From Pristiophorus japonicus (Eukaryota), in assembly GCF_044704955.1 (NCBI RefSeq), contig NC_091977.1, forward strand, positions 505,610,001 through 505,674,000: 64,000 nucleotides of DNA. The letters run 5' to 3'. The notes beneath the pieces are model-generated. The model saw only the letters and a program-made list of their open reading frames with translations, was not told where the DNA came from and made no database searches. Positions 18,161 through 64,000 of the stretch are shown piece by piece; position 1 is the first letter of the stretch; the number at the start of each line of letters is the position of its first letter. The translations under genes were made by a program, and so were the position numbers.

Positions 18161-18263
18161 ATTATATAGATGAGAAAATTCAATTTCCAAAGGGCTGGAT
18201 AAAGATTTTGGAGAAGGCTTCACAATAACAGAGATTATCTTGGAATTCAGCACTGTGGCATTT
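18161..18263 (-). CDS. ADGRB1: ADGRB1 internal exon, GAIN domain, 103 bp
   Basis: Acceptor caatttcag, donor AAT|gtaagt. Translates [34 protein letters not shown] (recalled BAI1 NTTVLNSKVISVTVKP...PLEIEFAHMYN). Confidence 0.95.
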
Positions 18264-19126: not shown

Positions 19127-22100
19127 TGTCGTGTATGTATGCTTGGGTTTACTAGCCACCAGGTGGCGCCACTGTCGGAGGTCACTGGGCTGTGCGCACG
19201 TGTGTGCGGCCTAGGTATAAAAGGCCAGCCATCTTGTAATGTAATCACTTTGAGCCCTAATAAAGTAGAGCCAGGTTTGTACCTGTTCAGAGTTTACAGT
19301 ATTCAGTCTATTGAGTTATTGCATACACAACATTTAGCGATGAGGTAACAAGAATCTTTGCATGCAAAAATGAGCACAATTGGAATTCTGGAGTGATTAG
19401 TGGAGGGAGAAGATTGGGCAGACTTTGTAGCCCGCTTGAATCAGTACTTCGTGGCCAACAAAATGGAGAAAGAGGCAGACACAGTTTGGCGCTGGGCGGT
19501 CCTCCTCACGGTTTGTGGTACGAAAATCTATGGACTCAAAGAATTTCCTCTCACTCTTAAGTCCAACAGACAAGGACTATGAAACATTGTGTGCTCTGGT
19601 ACGTGACCATCTCAAACCAGATGAAGGCATCATCATCTCAAGATATCGAAGTCCGTCCCCAGAACCGTCGTGTTCCAAGAAACTGGTCACCAGTCGTGAT
19701 TCTGCTGAACATCTGAACAACCTGGAAGAGTTTCTACATCGTCTGGACAAAGTGGGACTCAGACTGAAACGCTCAAAGTGCATCTTCATGGCACCTGAAG
19801 TCGAATTCCTGGGCAGTAAAATTGCTGCTAACGGTATCAGGCCGATGGACTCGAAAACCAAAGCTATCAAAAATGCACCCAAGCCTCAAAATATGACAGA
19901 GCTGCTTTCCTTCCTCGGTCTACTCAACTACTTCGGTAATTTCTTACCTAGATTGAGCACCTTATTAGAGCCACTGCACATGCTGTTAAGAAAAGGCGAC
20001 AACTGGGTTTGAGGTGCATCTCAAAATAGAGCTTTTGAGAAAGTTACTAATCTGCTTTGCTGCTGGTACATTATGATTCGTGTAAGCGTCTAGTATTGGC
20101 CTGTGATGCTTCATCATATGGAGTGCTCCAACAAGCTAATGATTCGGGCAAATTACAACCTGTTGCATATGCTTCAAAAAGTTTGTCAAAGGCAGAAAGA
20201 AGCTACAGCATGGTAGAGAAAGAAGCACTAGCCTGTGTGTATGGGGTTAAAAAGATGCATCAGTACCTGTTTGGTCTTCGGTTTGAACTGGAAACAGATC
20301 ACAAGCCACTCATTTCACTGTTTTCGGAAAACAAAGATATCAAAACCAATGCATCAACCCATATCCAGAGGTGCGCGCTGACAATATCACTCATCATATT
20401 ATGTCACTCATCATAGACATGGCACTGACAATTGTGCCAATGCATTGAGCCGTCTGCCGCTGCTCACACTGGAGGTGGAAATGCCATAACCGGCAGACCT
20501 ACTGTTAGTCATGGATGCTTTTGAAAGTGAAGGAACCCTAGTTATGGCCCAACAAGTTAAGACCTGGATCAGCCAGGACCCGATATTATTGGTTGTGAAA
20601 TGTTGTATCCTTAGTGGTGATTGGTCTGCCATACCCAAGCAAATGTGTGAGGAGACCAAACCTTACATCCGTTGCAAAGACGAACTATCCATTCAGTCAT
20701 TGTATACTGTGGGGTAATTGTGTTGTTATGTCTAAGAAAGACAGAGAGAAATTTGTGCATGATCTACATTGCACGCATCCTGGTATTGTCATGATGAAAG
20801 CTTTTGCCAGGTCTCATGTATGGTGGCTTGGAATTGACTCTGATCTGGAATCATGTGTGCATCAGTGCAACACTTGCATGCAGCTTAGTAATGCACCAGT
20901 GGAATCGCCACTGAGTCTGTGGTCATGGCATTCTAAACCATGGTCCAGGATCCACATTGACTTTGCAGGTCCCTTCCTGGGAAAGATGTTCTTTGTTGTG
21001 GTGGATGCTTATTCCAAGTGGCTAGAGTGTACAATCATGTCATCCAGCATATCCACAGCTACCAGTGAGAGCCTTCATGTCATGTTTGCTATGCATGGTC
21101 TGCCTGACATCATCGTAAGCGACAATGGATCTTGCTTCACCAGGATGGAGTTTCAAGAGTTCTTGAAACTCAATGGTATCAAACATGTGAGGTCAGCACC
21201 ATTCAAACCCGTATCCAATGGACATGCAGTGCAGTCCAAACCATCAAGCAGAGTATGAAACGTGTAACTCAAGGTTCACTGCAAACTCGCTTGTCATGCA
21301 TATTGCTTAGTTACAGGACAAGACCCCATACGCTTACCGGAGTCTCCCCTGCTGAACTATTGATGGAGAGGTCTCAAGACCAGGCTCTCTCTTGTCCACC
21401 CTGATTTGAATAATCATGTCGAATACAGACATCAAAGTCAGCAAGGGTATCATGATCGCGCTACTGTGTCACGCGATATTTCTATCAATGATCCTGTGTA
21501 TGTACTGAATTATGGTCAAGGTCCCAAATGGATCGCCGGCACTGTTATGGCCAAGGAAAGTAAAAGAGTGTTTATCGTTAAGCTCAAGAATGGGCAGACA
21601 TGCAAGAAACATGTCGATCAGATAAAGCTGCGGCACACGGATGAACCGGAACAGTCTGAGGAGGACACAGTGACCAACCAACCTACCCTCAGTCATCAGA
21701 GGACGCCACTGTCATCAATGAATCTGGACTTTCAATCACTGACATGGTCAATGAATCTGGACTTTCAATCCCTGATGTGGTCATTGCCACTCCCATCAGA
21801 TCGGCTACCCAGCCCCCAGTCATAACAGATTCAGAATGCTTGCCCAAGGCTGGAGTTGAACTGAGACATTCAACTCAGGAGCAGAAAGCCTCGGACCATC
21901 ACAATTTGTAAAAAGACTGTTACTAATATCTTAAAGGGGGATATTGTCATGTATGTATGCTTGGATTTACTAGCCACCAGGTGGCGCCACTGTCGGAGTT
22001 CATTGGGCTGTGCGCATGTGTGTGCGGCCCAGGTATAAAAGGTCAGCCATCTTGTAATGTAATCACTTTGGGTCCTAATAAAGTAGAGCCAGGTTTGTAC

Positions 22101-31031: not shown

Positions 31032-34000
31032 TGTTTTGTATGTAAACTTTATAATAGTGTAAGACTTGCCACCAAGGGGCACACCTGTTGGAGACCCAAG
31101 GGTCATCTGCACACCTTGTGCAAGCAAGTATAAAAGGTTGTCTGCCATGCTGCTTCTTCACTTTGGAGTTTGATTAAAGAGACTAAGGTCACATCAGTTT
31201 GAGCGTACAACATATAGTCTTGTGGAGTTATTCTGAACATAACAATTGGTGACGAGTAACAGATCACGAACTTTCACGCGGTTATGGCTGCGTTGGTATT
31301 CTTGAGAGATTTGTTGAGGGTGACAATTGGGAAGCCTTCATTGAGCATCTTGACCAGTACTTCGTGGCCAATGAGCTGGATACAGACAGTAACGCGGTCA
31401 AGCGCAGGACGATTCTCCTCACCGTTGTGGGTCTACGATATATGGCCTCATTAAAAATCTGCTAGCACCGACAAAACCAATGGATAAGACATATGCAGAG
31501 TTGTGTACGCTGGTTCGGGGACACCTCAAGCCAAAGGAGAGCATCTTAATGGCCAGGTATCGCTTTTATACGCACCATTGCTCCGAGGGCCAGGACGTAG
31601 CGAGTTATATTGCCGACCTAAGATGCCTTGCAGGACCATGCGAATTTGCTGGATTTTTGGGGGAAATGTTGCAGGACTTTATCGTGCTTGGAATCAGCCA
31701 CGAGGTCATTCTTCGCAAATTGCTGTCTGCCGTATCCCTAGATCTGAGCAAGGCCATCACAATAGCCCAGGCTTTCATGTCCTAAGCAGATATGTTCTCA
31801 GCGTCGAAGCTCATCGGCAAGTACTGTGCATAAAATAACACCTTTAGCAGGCAGAACTGTACATGGCAGGACCTAGACGCTTGCAGAGGCCAGACCTAGG
31901 ATGCCTGAGAGTCCGTCATGGGGCGTGAATGTGAATCCATTAATACCATGTTGCCGCTGCAGGGGTAATCATAGAGCCCATCAATGTCGATTCAAGCACT
32001 ACGTGTGCAAATGCTGCGGAACAATGGGGCACCTCCAGCGAATGTGTAAACGTGCTGCGACTCACCACGTGGCAGAGTCAGCAAAAGATGTCCGATCCGG
32101 CATGGATCACGCTGAACGAGTAAGAGAGGCAACTCAACCCAAGGTTGAAGAGGAAATGTATGGGGTACACACCTTCACCACCAAAAGCCCTCCGTTAATG
32201 TTGAAAGTTAAATTAAATGGCACTCCAGTTTCCATGGAATTGGACACAGGGGCAAGTCAGTCAATTATGAGTCAGAAGGCTTTTGAGAAACTGTGGGGCA
32301 ACAAGGCACAAAGGCCAAAACTAAGCCTGATTCAAACAAAGCTGCGCACTTACACCAAAGAGCTCATACCAGTCATTGGCAGTGCGGCAGTGAGGGTATC
32401 GTACGATGTAGCTGTGCATGATTTATAACTATGGATTGTGCCAGGCGATGGCCCAACGCTGTTCGGCAGAAGCTGGCTAGGAAAGATCCAATGGAACTGG
32501 GACGACATCAAAGCACTGTCTTCGGTGGATGACGCCTCGTGCGCTCAAGTGCTAAACAAATTTCCATTGCTATTTGAGCCAGGCATCGGCAACTTCACAG
32601 GCGCCAAAGTGCAGATTCATCAAGTCCCTGATGCACGGCCCAGTCATCACAAGGCCAGAGCGATTCCATATGTGATGTGGGAGAAAGTCGAGATCGAACT
32701 GGACAGACTTCAACGAGAGGGAATTATATCGCCAGTCGAGTTTGAGTGGGCCAATCCAATTGCTCCGGTGTTGAAAAGCGATGGCACGGTCAGAATCTGC
32801 GGAGACTACAAAGTAACGATCAACCGAGTCTCGTTACAGGACCAGTACCCGCTACCCAAAGCGGAGGACCTGTTTGCAACGTTAGCAGGAGTGAAGTCGT
32901 TCACCAAGCTGGATCTAACCTCGACTTACATGACACAGGAGCTGGCTGAATCTTCGAAAAGATTGGTGTGCATCAACACGCACAAAGGACTGTTCATATA
33001 CCACAGATGCCCTTTTGGGATTCGCTCGGCTGCTGCCATCTTCCGGAGGAACATAGAGAGTCTGCTGAAATCTGTTCCGTGCACCGTTGTGTTTCAAGAC
33101 GACATCCTGATCACTGGTCGTGACACCACCGAACACCTGCACAATCTGGAAGAGACTCTAAAGCGACTGGACAGAGTGGGACTCAGGCTGAAACACTCCA
33201 AGTGTGTTTTCCTGGCGCCAGTGGTCGAATTTTGGGGGAGAAAGATTGCGACAGATGGCATCAGACCCATGGACTCGAAGACGGAGGCCGTCAAGAATGC
33301 ACCCAGACCACAGAGTTCGTTCCTGGGACTCAACTATTTTGGTAACTTTCTACCCGGGTTGAGCACTTTGCTGGAACCTTTGCATTTATTGCTACATAAG
33401 GGTGACAACTGAGTTTGGGGTAAATCTCAAGGGACAGCCTTCGTTAAGGCCAGAAACCTGTTATGTTCTAACAAGTTACTTGTAGCTTGTGATGCATCTT
33501 CGTACGGGGTTGGTTATGTGTTACGGCAAGCCAATGTGTCAGGCAAACTGCAACCAGTTGCATATGCATCCAGAAGTTTATCTAAGGCTGAAAGAGCCTA
33601 TAGTATGGTTGAGAAAGAAGCATTGGCATGCGTATATGGGGTTAAGAAAATGAACCAATACCTATTTGGACTGCGGTTCGAGCTCGAAACCGACCACAAA
33701 CCGCTCTTTTCGCTGTTTTCAGAAAGCAAAGGTATTAACACCAATGCTTCGGCCCACATCCAAAGATGGGCACTAACATTATCTGCATATGACTATGTAA
33801 TCCACCACAGACCAGGCTCTGAAAACTGTGTTACCATTGCCCACCACCGGGGTGGAAATGGCGCAACCCGCAGACTTGCTTCTTGTAATGGATGTTTTTG
33901 AGAGTGAGGGGTCACCTGTCATGGCTTGCCAGATCAGGACCTGGACTAGCCAGGACCCTGTGCTATCACTAGTAAAAAACTGCATCCTTAATGGGAGCCG

Positions 34001-35507
34001 GTTGGCTGTTCCCGGGAAATGCAAGACGAAATTAAGCCGTTTCACCAACGCAAGGATGAAATGTCCATTCAATCGGATTGTCTCCTATGGGGGAGTCATG
34101 TGGTTTTGCCAAAAAAAGGTAGGGAAACGTTTATACGCGACCTACACAGTACCCACCCAGGCATAGCCATGATGAAGGCTATCGCCAGGTCACACGTTTG
34201 GTGGCCCAGCATTGACTCGGAATTGGAGTCATGCGTACACCAATGTAACATTTGCTCACAGTTGAGCAATGCACCAAGGGAGGCCCCACTGAGTCTGTGG
34301 TCATGGCCCTCCAAACCGTGGTCAAGGGTTCACCAAGATTTCACTGGCCCCTTTCTAGAAAAGATGTTCCTAGTAGCAGTGGATGCTTACTCTAAATGGA
34401 TTGAATGTGCAATAATGTCATCATGTAACTCCACTGCCCCACTGAAAGCCTCCGGGCCAAGTTCGCCACCCATGGTTTGCCCGACGTTCTTGTTACTGAC
34501 AATGGACTATGTTTCACCAGCTCGGAATTCAATGAGTTCATGACCCGCAATGGCATCAAACATATCAGGTCTGCTGTGTTTAAGACCGCATCCAATGGTC
34601 AAGCGGAACGGGCAGTCCAAACTATCAAGCAGAGCTTGAAACGGGTGACGGATGGTTCCCTGCAGACCCGGTTATCTCGGGTTCGGCTCAGCTACTGGAC
34701 GCGACACACTCGCTCACCGGGGTTCCCCCTGCAGAATTGCTAATGAAGAGAGCACTCAAAACCAGGCTCTCCTTAGTCCACCCGGATCTCAATGATCATG
34801 TAGAAACCCGGCGTTACCGGCATAACATGTATCACCGTCACGCAGCTGCATCGCGTGACATTGAGGTTAATGACCCTGTATTTGTTGTTAACTACGGTCA
34901 TGGTCCCAAATGGGTTGCTGGCACTGTTTTAGCCAATGAGAGGAAGAGAGTATTTGTTGTTAAACTTCTGAATGGACAAACGTGCAGAAAGCATTTGGAT
35001 CAGACCAAACTACGATTAACCGACAACCAAGAACAGTTTGAAGAGGACATTACCATCATTGATCCACCAACACACACCCAAGCAGCAATTGATCTCACTG
35101 TTAATCATGAGGATGAACCCACCATGCCCGACAGTCCAATCAGACCAGCCGGGCTGCAGTGCAGCAATGATCCGACCAACTCACCCATGCCAGGACTTCA
35201 ACTCAGGCAATCAACCCGGGAACAAAGAGCCCCTGATTGCCTCAACTTGTAAATAACTTGTATCTAAGACTTTGAGGGGGGGTGGAGGGGGAGTGATGTT
35301 TGTATGTAAACTTTTCATAGTGTAAGACATGCTACCAGGGGGCGCACCTATTGGAGATCCAAGGGTCACCTGCACACCTCGTGCAAGCAAGTATAAAAGG
35401 TTGTCTGCCATGCTGCTTCTTCACTCTGGAGTTTGATTAAAGAGACTAAGGTCACATCACTTTGAGCGTACAACATACAGTCTTGTGGAGTTATTCTGAG
35501 CATAACA
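31032..35507 (+). mobile_element. Full-length but decayed Ty3/Gypsy (Mag-like) LTR retrotransposon
   Basis: LTRs at 31032-31244 and 35297-35507, perfect TSD CTGGT, PBS tggtgacgag (tRNA-Ser-like), G-rich PPT. Confidence 0.96.
31284..35252 (+). pseudogene. gag-pol remnant (Gag with two CCHC knuckles, PR, RT, RNase H, IN)
   Basis: [27 protein letters not shown]; LDTGAS; RICGDYK, CPFGI, FQDD; ACDAS; H..H..C..C, VTDNG and SNGQAER. Multiple stops and frameshifts. Confidence 0.93.
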
Positions 35508-43734: not shown

Positions 43735-44830
43735 TGTTATGTATTGATGTGTGTATCGTCCTAGTACCTTAAATGTAATATAAGCACAATGGTACACCAC
43801 AGAGGGCGCTGTGGTGGGAAACCTGGAAGTACCTGCAACAGGCAATATAAAAGGCTGACCACCTCACCTGAGAGGCACTCTGGAGCTGAACAATAAAGGA
43901 CGAAGGTCACAGCAGTTAGATTAACATCAGACCGGCGGCAGCAGCTGGAGGTCGGCGGCCACGGCGGCCACGTGGGAGGTCGCTACGGAGGCCACGGGGG
44001 AGGCGGCAAGTGCGGCCGCTGGAGAGGCCACGACGGCCGCAGGGGAGGCGGCTACGTTAGCCGCCAGAGAAGCGACGACGACGGCCGCAGGAGAGGCGGC
44101 AAGTCAGGTGGCAGCGGAGGGGAGCGGAGGCTGTGGCAGCGGAGAGCATCATGGCGGCGGCCTCGGTCCAGAGCAGCAGAGCATCAAAGATGGTGGCGCC
44201 CAAGGAGAAGCCTCATGGAATCCTCCTGCATCAAAGATGGCGCCTTAAAAAGGAAATGCACCCAGGAGTCTTAAAAGGGCCTTACCATGTGGTGGTCCCC
44301 AGAAAGGACTTCTGTAAGGCAGAGCGAGTCTAAAATGAGCTATGTTAATGTGAGATGGCGAATTTATAATAAGAATTAATATTCTAATGCTGAATGGCCA
44401 CTGTATTTGTGTAAAATAATGGATATGAAGTACAATTAATGATAAGAGCTAACAAGGAAATCAGGAATCCGTTACCAGTCAATAACTAATTAATGTACCA
44501 GATAACATGTACCATACTAACGCATGTCTATGCCTACCTGCCTTCCGTTGGACAAGTGTGATGTTATGTATTGATGTGTATATCGTCGTCCTGCGTCCTG
44601 GTGGGGGGTGAAGTGTGATGTTATGTATTGATGTGTGTATCGTTCTGGTACCTTAAATGTAATATAAGCATAATGGTACAACCTGGAAGTACTCGCAACA
44701 GGCAATATAAAAGGCTGACCACCACACCTGAGAGGCACTCTGGAGCTGAACAATAAAGGACGAAGGTCACAGCAGTTAGATTAACATCAGACCGTGTGGA
44801 GTCAGTGATTTGTGTGCTACATACACCACA
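43735..44830 (+). mobile_element. Deleted, non-coding Gypsy-type LTR element
   Basis: 5' LTR 43735-~43932 (U5 end lost), GC-rich low-complexity core, 3' LTR 44619-44830, TSD GGAAG/GGAAC. Confidence 0.85.
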
Positions 44831-45557: not shown

Positions 45558-46054
45558 CAATGATTGACAACACATTAACAGAAACTGTACATGAACATTA
45601 GCTAAAAGAACCAAGTGCCTGCCCTTGTGTGTTGTTAGTTGGTATGATTGGACATGGATGAGGCCGAGTGTGAAGGATGGCTGGTGAGATGGGTATGTGA
45701 TAATGTAGATCGAGAGAGAGGGAGCGAGATGCCATGGCAGTAGCCCGGCACACAAGCAGAATGCTGGGCTGCAAGATCCAAGAGGATAAGTCGATAATTC
45801 GGCCAATGTTTTTTCCTTCCACGCCTCCCCTTTAATTATCAGCCCGCGAGCGGCCTACAACCCGGAACGCTCCCTGTGAAGTTGTCGTGGGCATCACCCG
45901 CAGCTGCTTCAGGGGACACTACTGAATTTTCGCTCCAAGGCAAAAACAAATCACTGCACACGGTGATGACATTGTCATCGTCAGCAGAAGCGCAGCGCTA
46001 CCGGTAGGAGTGGGGCACTACTGGTTATCATCGCTGCTAAACTCCCATATTAGT

Positions 46055-47238
46055 AGAAGATATTGCAAAGTCTCTGTTTAAAGAATGGACTCAGTCGAGA
46101 ATATTTCATGTACTTTATGGGATTTTTCTGAGGGTATTTTTCCCTGTGATGGCATCACCCTGTGCAGAGAGACCGCATGGCAGTTGGCTGTGACAAAAGA
46201 ACTGTCAGTCATCCAGAATGTATGGGTTCGCCCGCCAGTCCTAGCTAAAGGAAGGGGGCCATATGCAAAAGCATTTCTCACCTCCATCTCAGAAGAGAAG
46301 CAGAACAATGATCCCACTGGCCTGGCCAGCCAAAGAGGAGCCAGTTTTTTTTCCCCCAACACAAAGACCGAGATATGTCCCAGACTCAGGGCCATTAGTT
46401 CAATACACATGGGTCTAATGGCCCATCACTGACTAAGCATCGGAGTGCTTAGAAACAAAAGGGTTTTAATGATTGGCGGCAAAGATAGGGGTAGCAAGAC
46501 TCCTATAAAGATAGACTCTTTTCCACCATTTCGCTACACCCCGGCCCCACCTCCCCCCCACCCCACCCCCCACCCCCAGCCACCTTCTCCCTCTCGCTCT
46601 CGACGTAACAAGAGGTAACAGAGGAGGAAGCCGCAGTTGTGCAGAAGAAGCCGCTGAGATAGAGAACCGCATACCCCTCACAGGGTACGGCCTCCAGGCA
46701 GTGACTTCCCACAGCTGAGCTGAGCACTTGAGACCGACTGTTTGTGGTGGTGAGCATGGTCGCGAGTGTCCCAAGCCAGTAACCAGATATCCCAGGCGAG
46801 CTGGGTGAGGTGTAAGGGCTCAGGGTTTTCTCAGAAGTGAAGCTTTTCAGGGCTATTCGGGGGAGGAAGCTTTGTTTGGTTTAGCCAGGCGAAGGGGCTG
46901 CAACTGGGTAATTCGTTGGTAGGGGTGGAGTTAGAATCTACCATAGCAACAAGGGAATTACTGCATGTTACCGGTCCTCAGTTTTGTACTGTATGTCTGT
47001 TGTTTGTAACCTGGATCTTACTCTCCACAGAGACAGTGATTTTCGTTTAGTAGTGCATGTTTTAGCCAGTGTGTGTTCGACTAAATAAATACAAGTACGA
47101 TTTTTCACCGAAGCATTGCAGTCCGTGACTTATTCCATTTACACTCTGAATAATAATCCCCGGGTATAGAATTTTCGTAAGGCAGGGGCGATTGGAACTG
47201 TCCATCTAGCCATTGGGCTAGGATCAAAACCACTTGCA
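46055..47238 (+). repeat. ERV 5' LTR (1184 bp)
   Basis: Direct repeat of 53458-54634; ends CA; TATAAA at 46504 and AATAAA at 47084. Confidence 0.95.
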
Positions 47239-47243
47239 TCTCT

Positions 47244-47261
47244 TGGCGACCACAAAGGGAC
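47244..47261 (+). promoter_or_regulatory. Primer-binding site, tRNA-Arg
   Basis: TGGCGACCACAAAGGGAC, 17/18 complementary to the recalled 3' end of vertebrate tRNA-Arg(CCG/TCG) (GTCCCTTCGTGGTCGCCA), 5 nt after the LTR. Confidence 0.8.
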
Positions 47262-47287
47262 CTGGGTTAAAGGAGTGTGAATCAGTC

Positions 47288-47925
47288 ATGGACAACGCTG
47301 CTGGCGAAAGATCCCAAATGGAGGAAGGGATTTCTTCATATATATTTAAGAAGGTTAACATCACTAAGAAATGGGTGCTAGGCTTGTTGCGTGCTGAGCG
47401 TCCAGTGGACGCAGCGGCAGAATGGACGGAGGGCAAGGAGCATAGGCGCAGCACTGAAAAGGTGATATGGCTCGTCTGTCGACAAAGACAAGTCCAACTG
47501 CTCGATGAGCAGGTTGGTAAGTTAAGAGGCAGAGCTCAGGGAGTCCAAGGCACAGTCAGATGCAGAGGCAGTAGTAGGGAGCAGGTTATGCACGGAGCTA
47601 AGGGATGAGAAGCTGGGAAGAATAAGCCAGGAGAAAACATTCCATAACCATAAGGAGTTCCTTCAATTCCAGGTAACTGAGGGAGAACACTCACTTGTTG
47701 AGTGAGGTAAAGGTGCTGGAAGAGCAGTTGAAGTATATTCAAGTGGCATGCAGATTCGCCAGCACTAGAGGGTTTGATACGGTAATCATGGTCCTTGCCA
47801 GGAGCAGATCTGGAATTTGACCGATGGTCTATCTAAGGCCAAAGGGATGGTCTGCTTGGTAGCTCCGGGAATTGCCTGGGTAGATAAGGAGGACTGTGAG
47901 GCAGAGGGGGACACTCGACCACTGC
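47288..47925 (+). pseudogene. gag: ERV gag N-terminal remnant
   Basis: First ATG after the PBS; helical/coiled-coil-like text with frameshifts; ends at the deletion junction with pol. Assigned by position. Confidence 0.65.
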
Positions 47926-50546
47926 CAGAAGTACAGGAGCTACCCGCCCTGACCATGGTAACGGGGGTAAGATTCTTCCTGGGACTCACAATGTACTGCA
48001 GGGATTTCATCGAGGACTATGCTGCTACGGCAGCCCATCTACTCCGGCTCCTCCACAAGGGAGTGGGATGAGGACTGCATGGCATCTTTTAGTCGTCTGA
48101 AGAGAGGTCTGCAGACCGCACTGGCTTTCGGAGCGATTGATGGGGGAGAGGAGTTCTTTTTGGAGGTAGCTGCCACAGGGGACAGTTTGAGCACAGTTCT
48201 GCTCCAGAAGCGGCATGGTAAGCTGAAGCCTGTGGTATACTCATCAGGAATCCTCACAGATGTAGAGAGGGGGTACTCCAATTGTGAGAGGCACCTGCTT
48301 GCCACACATTGGGCCGTGAAGAGATCACAAATCTTCACGGGGGCGTCCCAATAACTCTCTTAACCCATCATACGCCGACTCAGATGCTTCTGGATGGGAG
48401 GATAAAGGATGGCACGGTGAGCAATGCACGCTTGACTTTATTGCTCTTTCAGACGAATGTGTGTGTGAAAGATCTCTGTGAGTCGAAGCTTGCCGCAAAT
48501 TTGATCTACCCAGGGGTGACTCACACACATGTTCTGTTGAAGAAGTATGGGATGTGGACATAGGGTTTCGGGCTGGAATCCATCCCATGGGCCGCGAGAT
48601 CTGTGGACGGGTCCAGTACAGTGGTGGCAGGGGAGCGACTCACTGGATGCGGGATTTTTGACCCAAAGGTCGGCATTGTCAAGGCCATTAAACTCCAGAG
48701 CACCATGAGCGCCCAGCATGCTGAACTGTCGGCGGTGGTGTTTGTGGTTACCCACCCCGAAGAGTTCCCTACACGATTTGCTCGGACAGCATGTTCACTT
48801 GCAATTCGTGTGCAGAATATTTAGCTATTTGGTCTCGCGGATTCAAATCTGCAGACGGGAAACCCCTAGCATTGTTGCGACAGATCATAACATCGATAGG
48901 AACCCAGAGGGATTTCTATATCGACAAAGTCAAGGCCCATTCTAAGACAGAACCCCGTGGGGAAGGCAATCAGCAGGCTGACGTACTGGGCAAAGAAGGT
49001 GCTCGAACTGGCAAGTTTTGGGATCCATATGGGTCGAGTCCAGCAGCAACGATCAGAGACAGAGGTGGGACACAAGGGAGTGCAGGGGTAGCATTGGCCC
49101 CAGACCTAAAGATGGTCCAGGCACAGGATCCCGTCCTAAAGACTGTTCTGGAGACGCTGGCTAAGGGAGTTAAGGTAGAGGGTCCATATGGAGTGGCAGG
49201 CATTACGGTAAAGGAAGGGATGGTTTTCAGAGGGGAACAGTGGGTAATTCCTCAGCAGCACCAGAGAGAATTCCTTCAGTTGGCCCACGAGGGTCCAGGA
49301 GCGGGGCACCCCGGGCCGGAGACCACCTGGCAACTGGTGGAACAGGCAGGGTGGTGGCTGCAACTGAGGGAGGACGTCCGCGACATCTACGCGGATTGCT
49401 TGGTGTGTGCTGCAAACAACCCTGACCCCCAGAAAAGAAAGGTATCCATGGGACACACTAGTAGAGTGGAGGGACCATGGCAGTCCATACAGGTCGATTT
49501 ATATCGGACTGCTGCCCACTGCGCAGGGGGGTTACAAGTACTGCCTGGTTCTGGTCGATGTATTCTCTAAATGGGTGGAAGCCTTCCCATGCTGCAAAGC
49601 CACAGCTTTGGGGACCGCAAGGATTCTAGTGAGAGAAGTGTTCTCTAGGTGGGGGCTACCACAGTATGTGGAGTTCGATCAGGGGAGTCACTTCACAGTG
49701 GCAGCCATGCAGGCAACTCTGAAGATGCTAGGTGTAGAGGGTAAATGACACGTCGCTCAAAACCCGCAGTCATTGGGGATTGTGGAGCGGATGAATAGGA
49801 CCATCAAGGAAAGATTACGGAAGGAGACGGAAGACTCGCCTAGAAAATGGGTGGAGGTCGTGCCGTTAGTTCTAATGGGGGTCCAAGCCAGCCCGTCTAG
49901 AAGCACAGGTTATTCCCCACATGAGCTCGTGACTGGCAGGGTCATGAGAACGCCCAGCCATGTACTGGCACCGGTTCTCACAGAAGGTCAGTTGAGAGAG
50001 GTGAACCGGGAAAGGTTCGTTAAGAATCTGTTTGAGCATCTCAAACAGATCCATTGGCAGGCTGCCAGTAACATGGGGAAGCAACATTGTAGAAATCATT
50101 TATTGCTTGAGCCTTAGAAGCACCACGAGTGGAAAGTTGGAGATCAAGTAATGGTCAGAAACTTCACTAGGGTAGGGACTTTTGAACCGCTATACATGGG
50201 ACCGTACAGTAGCGTGGATAAGGCAAGTCCGATGGTATATGCGGTCAAAATGCCCTGACGCACTAAGTGGTTCCATATCAATCAGTGCCAGCTTTTCAAC
50301 CCTGGGGAAAGAGCCGACACGAGGAGGAAACAGCCGGGAGTGGTGAGCTGCACTGCAGGTGTGGGTCTCCAGCCCATAATCTGGGACTGTGAGGAGCCCA
50401 CAGAGGGACCAGCCATTCCACCTGTGGGGGCAGGAGTGAGAAGGAGTGCCAGGATCCCACGGTCCAGGATGCTGTGGACGCCTCCTTACACACCGGTGAA
50501 CGAAGGAAACCGGGGTCATAAGAGGCCCAGGACTGAGGAGACCTAG
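47926..50546 (+). pseudogene. pol: ERV pol remnant: RT thumb, tether, RNase H, integrase
   Basis: VRFFLGLTMYCRDFI; tether FFLEVAATG...PVVYSS...CERHLLA; RNase H VDGSS, SAQHAEL, SDS, KVKAH, GNQQAD; IN HEGPGAGH..CLVC, WQSIQVD, FDQGSHF, GIVERMN, MGPY. Confidence 0.93.
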
Positions 50547-50747
50547 TGTGGCTGCCCGGAGACGGGTGGCGCTGTACATAACTTCTTTCTTTCCTATCTG
50601 TTGCCTTAGCTTGTCTATATAGTTTGTGATTTAAATATATTCCGGTTTCCAAAGGTAATCATGTGTAGTTGCGTCTGGAAAGGTGAGGCATCACCCCAAG
50701 GACAACGTTGCATTTTGTGTGTTTTTCAGGGAATGCCTAAGAACAGG

Positions 50748-53069
50748 ATGAAGTCAGCCATATGAATCCTGATCACCATGATTGAAGCCAGCACGAGTCG
50801 CAGGGGCGACACGGAGGAATCGGTTGTCTTCGGCTGTACCGGCGGAGATGGACCGACCGTGACCACCGGAGGTGGCTCGAAGGATGGGGCGAGCATCTCT
50901 CTCCATGAGGGAAGATGGCCGGGATGGCTGGGGTCGAATTCCACCCAGTATTCCAGCCATGATAAGTTCACCTATGGTGAAACGTCCATTTCATGCCCGA
51001 GAATAGGGGTTACCATCTCCCAGGTTAGGGTAACGGAGGGTAAACGGGTGTGCTTTAGCTGTAGGGACACATTCCACTGGGAAGGTGGTGGTGGCTCAGG
51101 AAACTGAGCACAGACACACGGGACCGGAGAGCTGACTGGGAAAGACTAAGTAACAACATGTACCGGACGACCACGGGTTCTCAGGGAGGAGTGAATGTGT
51201 GTTGGGATAAGTGGTGGGAATCCAAGGACGGGATTTTGTGTGTGTATGTGGGGGTCGGAAAAGATCTGCCCAATGGGTGTGTCGATCGCGTTTAGCAGGC
51301 GATGGCAGACGCCAGGGGTGGGATTGGTTGGGATCGGAATGTGGACTCCTGTGTGATCCCAAAACCCCTGAACACCATCAATGCCACAGAGGTCATCTCA
51401 TATACCAGGAAGCCCCCGCTCAGAGCCCTGACGGCACAGACGACTGTAAATAGGTGTCCCACCACCACCAGGGGTCCAAGGAATGGGTTGGTGTTAATGC
51501 CTACTGACAAAGTTTTGTTTTAGAATGTGCACTACTCTATGGCATCCATGATCCTGAACCTGACTGAAGTCCACCTGCCTGTGTGGTGCCCAAAGATAAA
51601 GAAGCTTTATGAAGCTCTGTTAAAAGTGATCTTTCAGGAATTTTATGAACTGGACTATGGAAATGTAGATAAAGACGGCTTTATGATCTGAATGTTGGGA
51701 ATAGTGTGGGGTCCGGCAGGCAGAGCAGAGGAACTTGGAACGATGTAGCCACAGCGTTCAGTACAGGAACGGGTATTGTTAATAGAATGGATGATTACAA
51801 CTCCAGATGCAGATCACTGGATTAAAGAACCAACTGCGTAAGATTCTAGGGGAAGAGAATACAGTGATGGGTTCAGAGCTTTATGAGGATCAGGCAATGA
51901 CCGTTCATTTAAAAGGAGGTCATTGCAGAGCTGGAGAGGCATGCTAAAACTGTTAATGATTTGATACGGGAGGACAGGAACGCCTCGGAGCAGGCTGCAC
52001 GGAATGAGGTGTGTGTGTTGTATGGAGCATGGTTGCTGGGCGAGGGCCACAGTAACCTGGAGGACCTGAGGCAAGGTCGCGTTCCTTCAGGGTTAAGCAA
52101 CAAGCATCTCGCCGCACTGCACCGGTATAGCAATTCGTTGAGCCCGTGCCAGCTTCATTTGGCCTCTGAAGCCTACCCTGTCCCTGTAGATTGCGGGCGG
52201 TCCAACCATACAGTGATGGGAATTGTAGTGAGGATTCCAGTATGAGCGGGTCATCCCAGCCAGCACCGGTATACAGGGTTTAGAATATTATGGTAATTCG
52301 TGGATGAGTGCACGTTCGTTTAAAAGCGGTCCCGCCGTATGTCATAAAGTGGGAGCATGCTATGACAGGCACTGACCTCTCCGGATGCCAGAGCCGGGGT
52401 GCACACGTAATACTGTGTCCCCAGCACTTGACTGCTTTTGCTCGATCAGAATATGGGTTTGCTTCTGCAGGTGCGGAACCTATCAATTTCACCATGGAAG
52501 TGATGGCACCAGATCACATACCTCCACAGGTAGCATGTGTTGGGAGTGGGACATACTGTTTCACCACAAGTGCACTCCACTACCAGTACAGCCAGGACAT
52601 GTGGTGTCCGGTGAGCGACAGAAGTTTTTGTTTCAAACCCAAGGCTGAGGTTCAAGTGGCACAAGAGCGAGTTACCCCCATCCCCGAACCCTCGACCATT
52701 CACCTCACTGTGAACAACAGCTTCACGCATCGCCAGGACTATGTGGAGCATTTCGGGTACCCGATTCCTTTTCTGCCGGAACACCTCACTGAGATAATAA
52801 AGACCGTGAAGCTCTCCCAGAAACATTTTTGCACTTTAGAGCAAAAGATAGTAGAAGTGGGGGACGAGATCAAGGGGATTATCTCGCCACCGTGGTGGGA
52901 CATCGATCTGAGTGTAGAGATTCCTCCCTGGATCTGCGTCTGTTCCCATGCATTGGTTATCATACAATTGTTGCTTGTAGCCTACTTGTTTTACATCAGC
53001 TGCAGGCGACGGAGCCAGATGCTCCGAGCGCGGTGGCAAGGGGTGTTAGATCGACCCAGAGAGGTGTAA
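50748..53069 (+). pseudogene. env: ERV env remnant (~770 codons; F-protein/foamy-TM-like fusogen)
   Basis: Splice acceptor gtttttcag at 50729; short signal-peptide-like start MKSAI*ILITMIEAS; RQSR cleavage site at 51718; heptad region; Cys-rich beta region; TM anchor ALVIIQLLLVAYLFYI followed by RRR. Confidence 0.85.
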
Positions 53070-53457
53070 TTGATTTATGTTGATGATGGTTTCTCCCTGC
53101 TAAAATTTGTAATGTACCAAAGTTCTGTAAGCAAGTGTATTATATTCTGGTTAGAGTTTTACACTCTATATTGCGCGATGTGCGCTATTGTGATTTTTGT
53201 AATGTGTTTCCACCTGTCAATGCTGTACTGTGTGATGTGCGCGGTGACCTATTTTTTGGTAACTTCTTGTGAAATGGAACCCAACCGTTTGAATGTTAAG
53301 AGGCCGTTTTCGCTGATGTCTTGACTCTGTCGAAGGGGGACAGTTCCAGGGTTTTAAAATGAAAAATCAGGGGAACAGCTTCACTTGTGGGAGACTTTGG
53401 CCTTTGCTCCCTCGTCAAGTGATCTTTTATTGAAAGAAAAAGCATCAAATTGGGGAC

Positions 53458-54634
53458 TGAAGAGATTGCAAAGTCTCTGTTTAAAGAATGGACTCAGTCG
53501 AGAATATTTCATGTACTTTATGGGATTTTTCTGAGGGTATTTTTCCCTGTGATGGGATCACCCTGTGCAGAGAGACCGCATGGCAGTTGGCTGTGACAAA
53601 AGAACTGTCAGTCATCCAGAATGTACGGGTTCGCCCGCCAGTCCTAGCTAAAGGAAGGGGGCCATATGCAAAAGCATTTCTCACCTCCATCTCAGAAGTG
53701 AAGCAGAACAATGATCCCACTAGCCTGGCCAGCCAAAGAGGAGCCAGCTTTTTTTTCCTAACACAAAGACCGAGATATGTCCCAGACTCAGGGCCATTAG
53801 TTCAATACACATGGGTCTAATGGCCCATCACTGACTAAGCACCGGAGTGCTTAGAGGCAAAAGGGTTTTAATGATTGACGGCAAAGATAGGGGTAGCAAG
53901 ACTCCTATAAAGATAGACTCTTTTCCACCATTTCATTACACCCCGGCGCCACCTCCTCCCCCCACCCCCCCACTCCCAGCCGCCTTCTCCCTCTCGCTCT
54001 CGACGTAACAAGAAGTACCAGAGGAGGAAGCCGCAGCTCTGCAGAAGAAGCCGCTGAGATAGAGAACCGCATACCCCTCACAGGGTACGGCCTCCAGGCA
54101 GTGACTTCCCACAGCTGAGCTGAGCGATCGAGACCGACTGTGTGTGGTGGTGAGCATGGTCGCGAGTGTCCCAAGCCGGTAACCAGATATCCCAGGCGAG
54201 CTGGGTGAGGTGTAAGGGCTCAGAGTTTTCTCATAAGTGAAGCTTTTCGGGGCTATTCTGGGGAGGAAGCTTTGTTTGGTTTAGCCAGGCAAAGGGGCTG
54301 CGATAGGGTAATTCATTGGTCGGGGTGGAGTTAGAATCCACCATAGCAACAAGGGAATTACTGCATGTTATCGGTCCTCAGTTTTGTACTGTATGTATGT
54401 TGTTTGTAACCTGGATCTTACTCTCCACAGAGACAGTGATTTTCGTTTAGTAGTGCATGTTTTAGCCAGTGTTCGACTAAATAAATATAAGTACGATTTT
54501 TCACCGAAGCATTGCAGTCCGTGACTTATTACATTTATACTCTGAATAATAATCCCCGGGTATAGAATTTTCGTAAGGCAGGGGCGATTGGAACTGTTCA
54601 TCTAGCAATTGGGCTAGGATCAAAACTGCTTACA
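53458..54634 (+). repeat. ERV 3' LTR (1177 bp)
   Basis: TG...CA termini, preceded by the purine-rich gaaagaaaaagcatcaaattggggac. Confidence 0.95.
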
Positions 54635-54699
54635 GAGTCAGTAGCAGCACCGTGCCCGGGCACGAACGGGAGGCGCAAATGCCCCAAATTTCTCCCCCT

Positions 54700-57079: not shown

Positions 57080-57214
57080 CTGTTGAAAAGATGCTTTTTG
57101 AAACAGTAACTTTATCTTCGGAATTCCTTGCCCAGTCAACCATTCCTCTCCAGCCTTTCATTGGGAAGTTGATGTCTGTGGCCCCATTGGCTGGGCGTTT
57201 ATAAATACATATCA
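57080..57214 (-). CDS. ADGRB1: ADGRB1 (BAI1) internal exon, GAIN domain, 135 bp
   Basis: Acceptor tttttttcag, donor ACAG|gtaaga. Translates (V)[44 protein letters not shown], matching BAI-family GAIN sequence (recalled human BAI1 ATDISFPMKGWR...EDRVTVSKSVFSTG). Phase 1 at both ends. Confidence 0.93.
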
Positions 57215-62285: not shown

Positions 62286-63126
62286 AGCGACTGCCGGAAA
62301 TGGCAGTTTCCTGCCTTCCAACTGGTCCTCTCCACCCCCACCCTCCCCCTGTACGGAAATAGGGGAGGATTGGAGACAGCAAAACACCTTGCCGGGGGGG
62401 GTGGGGGGGGCAGCTTTGCGGACCATCAGTAAGGCTAGGGACGACGACTGTTGAGGGCAAACCTTAATGGGAAGTTGCTTGAACGTTGAATGCTGGCAGT
62501 CCCAGTGGAGATTCATGTCGCAAAACCTATATTTATAGAGAGTTATCCCCAGTGTCCTGGGACACTCAGTCCTGTTAGACACACACACACACACACACAG
62601 TCAGGGCTGGGACATTTATTATTAAAAAATTCAGTTTTCGTATTGCGAGGCTGCAACAAACTAATAAATCCACTCCCGCATCAGATCACCTTATTATATA
62701 TCCTCAACCATTAAAACAAATGTTTAAATTAATATGTCTACGTGCTCATCTTTCTTCCCTATTCCCTCCACTTCCCCCTTCTCTACTTCAATCCTATTTT
62801 AAAATCTAATCCCGTAACTAACGCACCCTTATTCTAAAGGTTCTATTTAACGCAATTTCCTTGACCCGAACTTTCTTTTGTTTCTTGGGTTCAAATCTCC
62901 AATTTGGAGGTGAGACGCACATCTTTGAAGCTCGCCTCCGATCGATTGAGCCGAGCTCTAAAGATTGACGGTCTCGCCGGTGACAACATGTCAAGGTGCG
63001 GAAGGCCGGTGGATGCCAATAACTGGGCCCAGGGGGATAACCAACACCTCACACCACAGGCTCACACGCTCTGGTCTTCCCTTAAAAAACAAAGAGAGTG
63101 CTTCAATCTCAGTATTGGCCGTCTTA

Positions 63127-63490
63127 GGGAGGGAGGGAGGGGAAATGGGAGGAGGAAGGGAGGAGAAATGGGGGGTAGGAAGGGAGGGGAAATGGGGGGA
63201 GGGAAGGAGGGCAAATGGGGGGGAGGAAGGGAGGGGAAATGGAGGGGGGAGGGGAAATGGAGGGGGAGGGGAAATGAGGGAGGGAGGGAGGGAAGGGAAA
63301 TTGGGGAAGGGAGGGAGGGGAAATGGGGGGAGAAAGGGAGGGGAATTGGAGGGAGGGAGGGAGGGGAAATGGGAGGAGGAAGGGAGGAGAACTGGGGGGC
63401 AAGAAGGGAGGGAGAGGAAATGGGGGGAGGGAGGGAGGGGAAATGGGGGAAGGGAAGGAGGGGAAATGGGGGAAGGGAGGGGAAATGGGG
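63127..63490 (+). repeat. Polypurine G-rich minisatellite (GGGAGGGAGGGGAAAT-like units)
   Basis: ~360 bp almost entirely G/A with dense G3+ runs. Confidence 0.95.
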
Positions 63491-64000
63491 TAATCGTGTG
63501 GTTTTGCCAAAAAAAGGCAGGGAAACATTTGTACGTGACCTACACAATACCCACCCAGGCATAGTCATGATGAAGGCTATAGCTAGGTCGCATGTTTGGT
63601 GGCCCGGCATTGACTCGTACTTAGAGTCATGCGTACACCAGTGCAACACATGCTCACAATTGAGCAATGCACCAAGGGAGGCTCCATTGAGTCTGTGGTC
63701 ATGGCCCTTCAAACCATGGTCCAGGATCCACGTAGATTTTGCTGGCCCCTTTCTTGGAAAGATGTTTTTAGTTGTAGTGGACGCTTACTCTAAATAGATT
63801 GAATGCATAATCATGTCATCCAGCACATCCAATGCCACCATTGAAAGCCCGGACCCATGGCTTGCCCGACGTCCTTGTCAGTGACAATGTACCGTGTTTC
63901 ACCAGCTCGAAATTCAACGAGTTTATGACCCGCAATGACATCAAGCATTTCAGGTCTGCCCAATTTAAGCCTGCATCCAACGGTCAAGCGGAACAGACAG

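What the first reader, a model, noticed from the sequence alone, without database searches (positions are those of the whole stretch)
46055..54634. Lokiretrovirus-like provirus in an apparent shark genome
Seen: long LTRs, a tRNA-Arg PBS, a 4-bp TSD, a Gypsy-looking but degenerate RNase H tether followed by a second RNase H with its catalytic motifs, a GPY-type integrase and an env with a very long TM subunit. Known: lokiretroviruses are a sister lineage of Retroviridae with dual RNase H and an Env related to Mononegavirales F proteins. As I recall, they were first reported from lampreys, bony fishes, amphibians and reptiles rather than chondrichthyans (please verify). Inference: this is a loki-like lineage in cartilaginous fish. 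The short signal peptide and lack of a long tas/bet-like ORF argue against a true foamy virus.
Basis: partly seen in the sequence, partly recalled or inferred. Interest (0 to 1): 0.85.

Follow-up and report, generated by a model that had tools for sequence, protein, structure and literature searches.

The report
Shark retrovirus fossil with loki-type envelope
This is a broken, internally deleted endogenous retrovirus in what is likely a shark genome; its family's reverse transcriptase groups with ordinary retroviruses rather than lokiretroviruses, but its envelope resembles the loki envelope and is predicted to fold like a paramyxovirus fusion protein, which would suggest that this envelope type is older and more widespread than thought.

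Summary
The provirus is real: LTRs of about 1.18 kb, 4% diverged, an Arg-type PBS, tether plus second RNase H, a GPY integrase and a long-TM env. It has lost about 2.2 kb (end of gag, protease, most of RT). The TSD matches only 3 of 4 bases here.

It is not a lokiretrovirus. Other natural copies in the genome keep RT. RT+tether trees put the family inside Retroviridae (99/98), and grouping with loki is rejected (AU p=0.0001 and 0.002; RT alone p=0.06). Nearest relatives are amphibian and coelacanth ERVs and a protein matching Han's 2015 'SnRV-like' CmiERV lineage I, already catalogued in chondrichthyans (moderate support).

The loki impression has a real basis. An Env profile scores loki Env 58-64 bits against 8-12 for foamy, WDSV-type and snakehead Env. 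The Env model matches paramyxovirus F, and the integrase cannot be separated from loki's.

Best reading: an early-branching class III retrovirus lineage of sharks and amphibians that carries a loki-type F-like envelope. I did not find this combination in print. New variant of a known kind.

The parts
46051..46054 (.). left target-site copy TAGT (3 of 4 match to the right copy)
46055..47238 (+). 5' LTR, 1184 bp; TATAAA at 46504, AATAAA at 47084
47244..47261 (+). primer binding site, Arg-type (tRNA identity recalled), 5 nt after the LTR end
47288..47931 (+). 5' remnant of gag, broken by stops and frameshifts
   Evidence: 56-79% to gag ORF P0002 of another copy
47931..47932 (+). deletion junction: about 2.1-2.3 kb missing (gag 3' part with zinc knuckle, protease, most of RT); unique to this copy
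   Evidence: 12 of 20 copies show both sides apart, 9 of them by 2.1-2.3 kb; 1 genome match, itself
47932..48430 (+). end of RT and tether (degenerate first RNase H)
   Evidence: PF17919 E 9.5e-17
48597..49003 (+). second RNase H with D-E-D-D motifs, frameshifted
49247..50546 (+). integrase: HHCC finger, D-D-E core, MGPY motif at 50196, broken by stops and a frameshift
50748..51729 (+). env N-terminal (SU) part, broken; ends at furin-like site RQSR (51718-51729; RQRR in other copies). An Ig-like domain is weakly hit in a young copy
   Evidence: Ig_3 E 0.0012, below cut-off
51730..53069 (+). env TM part, ectodomain about 400 codons, anchor from about 52932; F-like fold predicted on another copy's natural ORF
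53458..54634 (+). 3' LTR, 1177 bp, TG...CA
54635..54638 (.). right target-site copy GAGT

Best explanation
The element is a dead, internally deleted provirus of a multi-copy retrovirus family whose RT falls inside Retroviridae, likely in an early-branching class III ('SnRV-like'/clade Huo) lineage shared with amphibian and coelacanth ERVs, and whose Env resembles loki Env and is predicted to have a paramyxovirus-F-like fold. Inferred life cycle of the family: transcription from the LTR; Gag with a coiled-coil N-terminus and one CCHC knuckle; Pol made by read-through of the in-frame gag stop; priming by an Arg tRNA; tether plus second RNase H; integration with a 4-bp duplication; furin-cleaved Env fusing membranes as F proteins do. 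This copy inserted antisense into an intron of an ADGRB gene and lost gag-PR-RT by a deletion found in no other copy, so it codes for no working virus. Shown: anatomy, deletion, RT placement outside loki, Env profile scores. Inferred: exact sister group, read-through, fusion mechanism, host taxon.
For: RT tree, 44 rows: non-loki clade 99/91; family with amphibian and coelacanth proteins and P0029 at 93/92. RT+tether: 98/99 and 99/98 with three loki rows. AU for family+loki p=0.00012 and 0.0022. RT motif LPQGFHNSPSIF against loki [CT]PFGY.NSPAEF. CmiERV lineage I RT reads TPACAPVVSDMSQLLK like P0029 (by eye). Searching G000 with a loki protein gave best hits of only 36%, and the 7 top loci I translated were this lineage; the loki motif pattern found 0 matches. 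Env: the family+homologue profile scores loki Env 63.7 and 58.4 bits, foamy 11.7, WDSV-type 8.3, SnRV 7.9, reversed decoys under 0. The model (pLDDT 68, pTM 0.54) hits hPIV3 F at E 8e-10. The same Env type is joined to a clade-mate RT in a Xenopus gene model (P0010 vs P0220, E 1e-31). Gag stop and pol in frame. zf-CCHC 21.5 bits.
Against: On RT alone, family+loki was not rejected (p=0.062). The link to the CmiERV-I-like clade is 93/92 and 87/86 but unresolved. SnRV itself is not the sister: it groups towards class I (95/95, 98/96), family+SnRV p=0.073 on RT+tether and p=0.040 on IN. So 'SnRV-like' is a loose label. The narrow Env profile scores loki Env only 4-9 bits, so the strong score depends on homologues whose pol is mostly unknown. 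The Env tree is unresolved. CmiERV-I has a Ser-type PBS and a gamma-type env (by eye). Loki references are motif-matched stand-ins, not the published consensus sequences. Fish foamy-like ERVs, Odin and CGIN1 were not in my trees.
Confidence: 0.8

Rival explanations
1. It is a true, divergent lokiretrovirus, the first in cartilaginous fish.
For: Env closest to loki Env; TM ectodomain 400 residues in both; IN and RNase H do not reject family+loki (p=0.20; p=0.17); RT alone p=0.062.
Against: RT+tether rejects it twice. The diagnostic RT motif differs. The PBS differs from that of loki loci L117 and L118. Family Env pieces miss PF00523 while loki controls hit it weakly.
Confidence: 0.04
2. It is an old recombinant lineage: gag-PR-RT from a class III retrovirus, IN and env from a lokiretrovirus (or loki took its 3' half from this lineage).
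For: RT excludes loki while IN and Env do not. In one IN tree loki nested among the family's amphibian and coelacanth relatives at 93/89. Env swaps happen in this clade: CmiERV-I carries a gamma-type env.
Against: With two more loki INs the nesting vanished into an unresolved basal grade, which fits shared ancestral state equally well. Env identity to loki is low and the Env tree shows no nesting. This reading is compatible with the best explanation and differs only in how the Env got there.
Confidence: 0.3
3. It is a fish foamy-like (Spumaretrovirinae) ERV.
For: Long LTRs; foamy Env is F-like (PMC11468914 passages; 11.7 bits); foamy-clade ERVs are reported from sharks (PMC10699275 passages).
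Against: Foamy RT, RH and IN form separate long-branch clades. Gag has a CCHC knuckle and pol follows gag in frame. No accessory ORF after env. Only mammalian foamy viruses were in my trees.
Confidence: 0.05
4. It is an env-bearing Gypsy (errantivirus-like) element.
For: The tether hits Gypsy-type Pfam models; ESM Atlas neighbours of Env include Baculo_F/Gypsy env clusters at 0.91-0.92.
Against: A 100/99-100 branch separates it from all Gypsy rows in RT and RT+tether trees. The best PDB matches to Pol are MLV-type and foamy RTs, above Ty3.
Confidence: 0.01

Closest known systems
CmiERV lineage I of elephant shark (Han 2015, PMC4422223), filed as SnRV-like; clade Huo of Xu et al. 2018 (PMC6001957)
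   Same: RT of the same type (P0029 as stand-in, clade 93/92); chondrichthyan host; TG...CA LTRs; coiled-coil gag; GPY/F-type IN tail (by eye).
   Different: CmiERV-I has a Ser-type PBS and a gamma-type env with ISD and CX6CC (by eye). This family has an Arg-type PBS and an F-like Env. The clade link was unresolved.
Lokiretroviruses (Wang and Han 2021, PMC7947760)
   Same: Tether plus RNase H; Env homologous by profile, with a furin site and a 400-residue TM ectodomain; IN not separable; gag stop followed by pol in frame.
   Different: RT+tether outside the loki clade (AU p<=0.002); different RT motif and PBS; Gag has a CCHC knuckle (none found in L118 Gag); Env misses PF00523.
Snakehead retrovirus (L051; 10,688-nt contig matching the published length and RT)
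   Same: RT motifs close; Arg-type PBS of another isoacceptor (recalled); read-through arrangement; Env weakly homologous across the furin site (hhalign probability 84%).
   Different: Not sister in any tree; IN sisterhood rejected at p=0.04; SnRV has accessory ORFs and a 135-residue Env tail; Env scores only 7.9 bits.
Foamy viruses
   Same: F-like (class Ib) fusion protein, long LTRs.
   Different: Separate RT, RH and IN clades; no tas/bet; this family has a CCHC Gag and in-frame pol.
ERV4 of crocodilians and turtles (PMC4299795)
   Same: Neither class I nor class II; env present.
   Different: ERV4 has a 5-bp TSD, no zinc finger and no GPY motif; this family has a 4-bp TSD, CCHC and GPY.

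Membership tests
Lokiretrovirus | RT in the clade sister to all other retroviruses | tested here: not met
   AU p=0.00012, 0.0022; RT alone p=0.062
Lokiretrovirus | Tether plus second RNase H | tested here: met
   shared by all retroviruses (PMC7947760), so not diagnostic
Lokiretrovirus | Env related to Mononegavirales F | tested here: met
   fold matches F; profile matches loki Env; PF00523 itself not hit by any family piece while 2 of 2 loki controls hit below cut-off
Lokiretrovirus | IN closest to CGIN1 | tested here: inconclusive
   no CGIN1 in trees; unresolved grade with loki; family+loki p=0.20
Lokiretrovirus | RNase H in group I with foamy viruses | tested here: inconclusive
   falls on the SnRV/class I side at 85/90-91; family+loki p=0.17
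Lokiretrovirus | smc-like gene (some members only) | not tested
   gag N-terminus has only a weak coiled-coil hit (HOOK E 0.05)
SnRV-like / clade Huo ERVs | RT inside Retroviridae, outside class I, class II and foamy | tested here: met
SnRV-like / clade Huo ERVs | RT clusters with SnRV or with elements published as SnRV-like | tested here: inconclusive
   with CmiERV-I-like P0029 93/92, unresolved; with SnRV itself not favoured, p=0.073
Spumaretrovirinae | RT in the foamy clade | tested here: not met
   (mammalian foamy references only)
Spumaretrovirinae | Gag without CCHC; tas/bet after env (features recalled) | tested here: not met
   zf-CCHC 21.5 bits over cut-off; no long ORF after env
Epsilon/gamma (class I) | RT in class I | tested here: not met
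   class I is a starred clade without the family
Metaviridae/Gypsy | RT among Gypsy; single active RNase H | tested here: not met
ERV4 | 5-bp TSD, no zinc finger, no GPY | tested here: not met
   against Table 1 of PMC4299795
Odin retrotransposons | RT sister to loki | not tested
   no Odin sequence was obtained

The most novel reading that the evidence does not exclude
This family belongs to one of the earliest-branching lineages of Retroviridae after loki, spread across sharks, rays, amphibians and coelacanth, and still carries the ancestral loki-type F-like Env and loki-grade integrase. The common ancestor of loki and retroviruses then had an F-like envelope, and gamma-type Env replaced it later, even within this clade. 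That would settle the four open Env-origin scenarios of Wang and Han in favour of an F-like ancestor, with a recently amplified shark subfamily (LTRs 99.8% identical) as a living witness.
Probability: 0.4. Interest if true: 0.7.

Novelty: new variant of a known kind. Interest (0 to 1): 0.45.

Why it matters
As a loki record for cartilaginous fish it fails, and class III/SnRV-like ERVs in chondrichthyans are known. What remains is a non-loki retrovirus whose Env is closer to loki Env than to any other retroviral Env I could test. Wang and Han reported no significant similarity between loki Env and retroviral Env and left four origin scenarios open (PMC7947760). A bridging Env family in elasmobranchs and frogs makes those scenarios testable by ordinary phylogenetics. 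It also warns that Env-, IN- or dual-RNase-H-based calls of 'loki' are unsafe without RT, and that syncytin-style screens seeded with gamma-type Env would likely miss this family.

Tried and rejected
The search for related loci with the family RT in viral contigs: no match. Loki motif scan in viral contigs: 0; in G000: 0 (not proof of absence). PF00523 scans of family Env pieces: no hit; SnRV Env also misses it. Env profile against PDB sequences: nothing under E 0.08. Env tree: unresolved, long branches. RNase H trees: weak. First motif scan for ADGRB exons found nothing; a splice-site scan did. ARAGORN on 3 PBS-pattern hits: no tRNA gene, so the tRNA identity stays recalled. Earlier scan notes: none. 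Non-autonomous subfamily idea rejected: the deletion junction occurs once in the genome. Rows dropped before trees: 12 of 75; 44 rows kept for, 34 for, 30 for, 39 and 33 for the IN trees; class II rows were left out of the RT+tether trees. The LTR divergence (0.037) used a slightly short 5' LTR; (0.040) replaces it. Literature searches that found no report of loki in chondrichthyans or of a non-loki ERV with loki-type Env: (open-access library only; Repbase, Dfam and subscription papers not searched).
Full report
Observation. The window holds a provirus at 46055-54634 on the plus strand. The LTRs are 1184 and 1177 bp with K2P 0.040. That gives about 9 My at the mammalian rate or about 92 My at the tenfold slower rate Han assumed for sharks, so the age is poorly bounded. 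The flanks are TAGT and GAGT, a 3-of-4 TSD. Perfect 4-bp TSDs were seen in 2 of 2 older copies with both ends read and in 1 of 1 young copy. The PBS starts 5 nt after the LTR; its Arg identity is recalled. Pfam finds tether, RNase H, integrase zinc finger and core. All genes carry stops and frameshifts. Two minus-strand exons flank the element and an AGRB_N exon lies upstream on that strand, so it sits antisense in an intron of an ADGRB gene; the ADGRB1 name is recalled.

Family. Searches of the own genome (5.92 Gb) scored 40 of 5070 first-look candidates for pol and 40 of 4358 for env, at 88-100% identity; these are not copy numbers. Of 20 copies fetched, 12 show both sides of window position 47931/47932 separated by extra DNA, 9 of them by 2.1-2.3 kb, and 5 have a YxDD-bearing ORF of 250 aa or more. 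The window copy has thus lost the gag end, protease and most of RT, and its junction occurs once in the genome. Other copies give natural RT, tether, RNase H and CCHC-bearing Gag ORFs. A younger subfamily, 82% identical over the RT-RNase H region, has long open pol frames at many loci. In the one copy examined, gag is followed in frame by pol after a stop, the LTRs are 99.8% identical and env is in two open pieces.

Host. Named Env homologues come from elasmobranchs (Pristiophorus, Rhinoraja, Scyliorhinus, Mustelus, Chiloscyllium, Heterodontus, Rhincodon) and one frog. A Pristiophorus protein is 93% identical to part of the young env. A shark host is therefore likely; it was not confirmed from a host gene.

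RT placement. By eye against Dataset S3 of PMC7947760, the family RT has LPQGFHNSPSIF, like SnRV, not the loki [CT]PFGY.NSPAEF. References came from tools: SnRV (L051), foamy (57), gamma (63), beta (64), WDSV-type (126), and loki stand-ins carrying the loki motif (P0020, P0034, P0102; L117-L119). Loki came out sister to all other retroviruses, and the family fell inside the latter at 99/91 (RT), 98/99 and 99/98. Family+loki was rejected on RT+tether (p=0.00012; p=0.0022) but not on RT alone (p=0.062). The nearest rows are amphibian and coelacanth proteins and P0029 (93/92; 87/86 without P0029; unresolved). P0029 matches by eye the RT of CmiERV lineage I, which Han placed with SnRV in the elephant shark. 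SnRV itself is not the sister (p=0.073).

Loki-like parts. The integrase lies in an unresolved basal grade with loki and the amphibian/coelacanth relatives, outside the clade of SnRV, foamy, ERV-L and class I. Family+loki is not rejected (p=0.20) and family+SnRV is marginally rejected (p=0.040). RNase H is uninformative. For Env, no family piece hits PF00523, but a model of a natural 447-aa ORF matches paramyxo- and pneumovirus F in the PDB (best E 8e-10, TM 0.35-0.41). In BFVD it matches many F-like glycoproteins, including walleye retrovirus Envs. A 26-sequence profile scores loki Env 63.7 and 58.4 bits against 11.7 (foamy), 8.3 (WDSV-type) and 7.9 (SnRV). The reciprocal search from loki Env hits the frog homologue at E 2e-11 and the family ORF at 9e-5. 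The narrow 9-sequence profile gives only 4-9 bits, and the Env tree is unresolved. A Xenopus gene model joins a clade-mate RT to the same Env type, so the pairing is not confined to sharks.

Mechanism. The family most likely replicated as a simple retrovirus: read-through Gag-Pol, Arg-tRNA priming, tether plus active RNase H, 4-bp TSD, and a furin-cleaved F-like Env. The anatomy is shown; read-through and fusion are inferred. This copy is dead. Whether IN and Env are ancestral holdovers or came by recombination with loki cannot be decided here.

Literature seen. PMC7947760: main text parts 1-3 of 4, supplement parts 8, 71, 72 and search passages. PMC4422223: main text part 1 of 2, supplement 1 part 1. 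bioRxiv 10.64898/2026.05.06.723177: first quarter. Passages only: PMC12193657, PMC13709493, PMC4977317, PMC6001957, PMC4299795, PMC12440569, PMC13524379, PMC9447858, PMC10699275, PMC11468914, PMC8278194, bioRxiv 10.1101/2024.07.05.601823. Odin (PMC9040795): search listing only. Loki was absent from 6 of 6 chondrichthyan genomes in the original screen. Searches turned up no report of loki in chondrichthyans or of a non-loki ERV with loki-type Env. Repbase, Dfam, subscription papers and the unread supplements of Xu 2018 may list this family.

Verdict. A real provirus, not a lokiretrovirus by the defining RT test, in a lineage broadly known from chondrichthyans. Its loki-type, F-like envelope on a Retroviridae RT is the part worth following. 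New variant of a known kind; interest 0.45.

Noticed in passing
L101-L116 (G000): A young subfamily of the same lineage, with near-identical long pol frames at many loci and LTRs 99.8% identical in the copy examined, points to recent amplification in this host.
   Followed up: partly
window 47239-47243: The PBS is set 5 nt off the LTR end in this family (also L011, L019, L021, L022 and the young copy); short spacers also precede the PBS in CmiERV-I and Loki-Bsp.
   Followed up: partly
L115:622-2214; P0212, P0231: The Env SU part carries a weak Ig-like domain signal in the young copy and in homologues (below Pfam cut-offs).
   Followed up: no
L122:5962-9648: Walleye epsilonretrovirus Envs came up among F-like matches in the fold search and score weakly with the Env profile, suggesting that F-like Env is common in fish retroviruses.
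   Followed up: partly
window 57080-57214 and 18161-18263 (minus strand): Exons of an adhesion GPCR B gene (GAIN region, recalled as BAI1/ADGRB1-like); the provirus is intronic and antisense.
   Followed up: partly
window 19440-21258 and 31877-35252: Two decayed Gypsy-like elements, read by eye from ORFs with RT, integrase and zinc-knuckle motifs.
   Followed up: no
window 43735-44794: A direct repeat pair of about 200 bp, about 870 bp apart and 95-97% identical: possibly a small non-autonomous LTR element.
   Followed up: no
window 63077-63506: Degenerate tandem array with a 23-24 nt period.
   Followed up: no
L100: Other LTR families in G000 share the same Arg-type PBS (478 exact 15-nt matches, fewer than the 844 of the reversed control, so the count alone says little).
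   Followed up: no
P0212 (Chiloscyllium), P0220 (Pelodytes): Full-length Env-family ORFs annotated as host genes; they could be young proviruses or co-opted envelopes.
   Followed up: no
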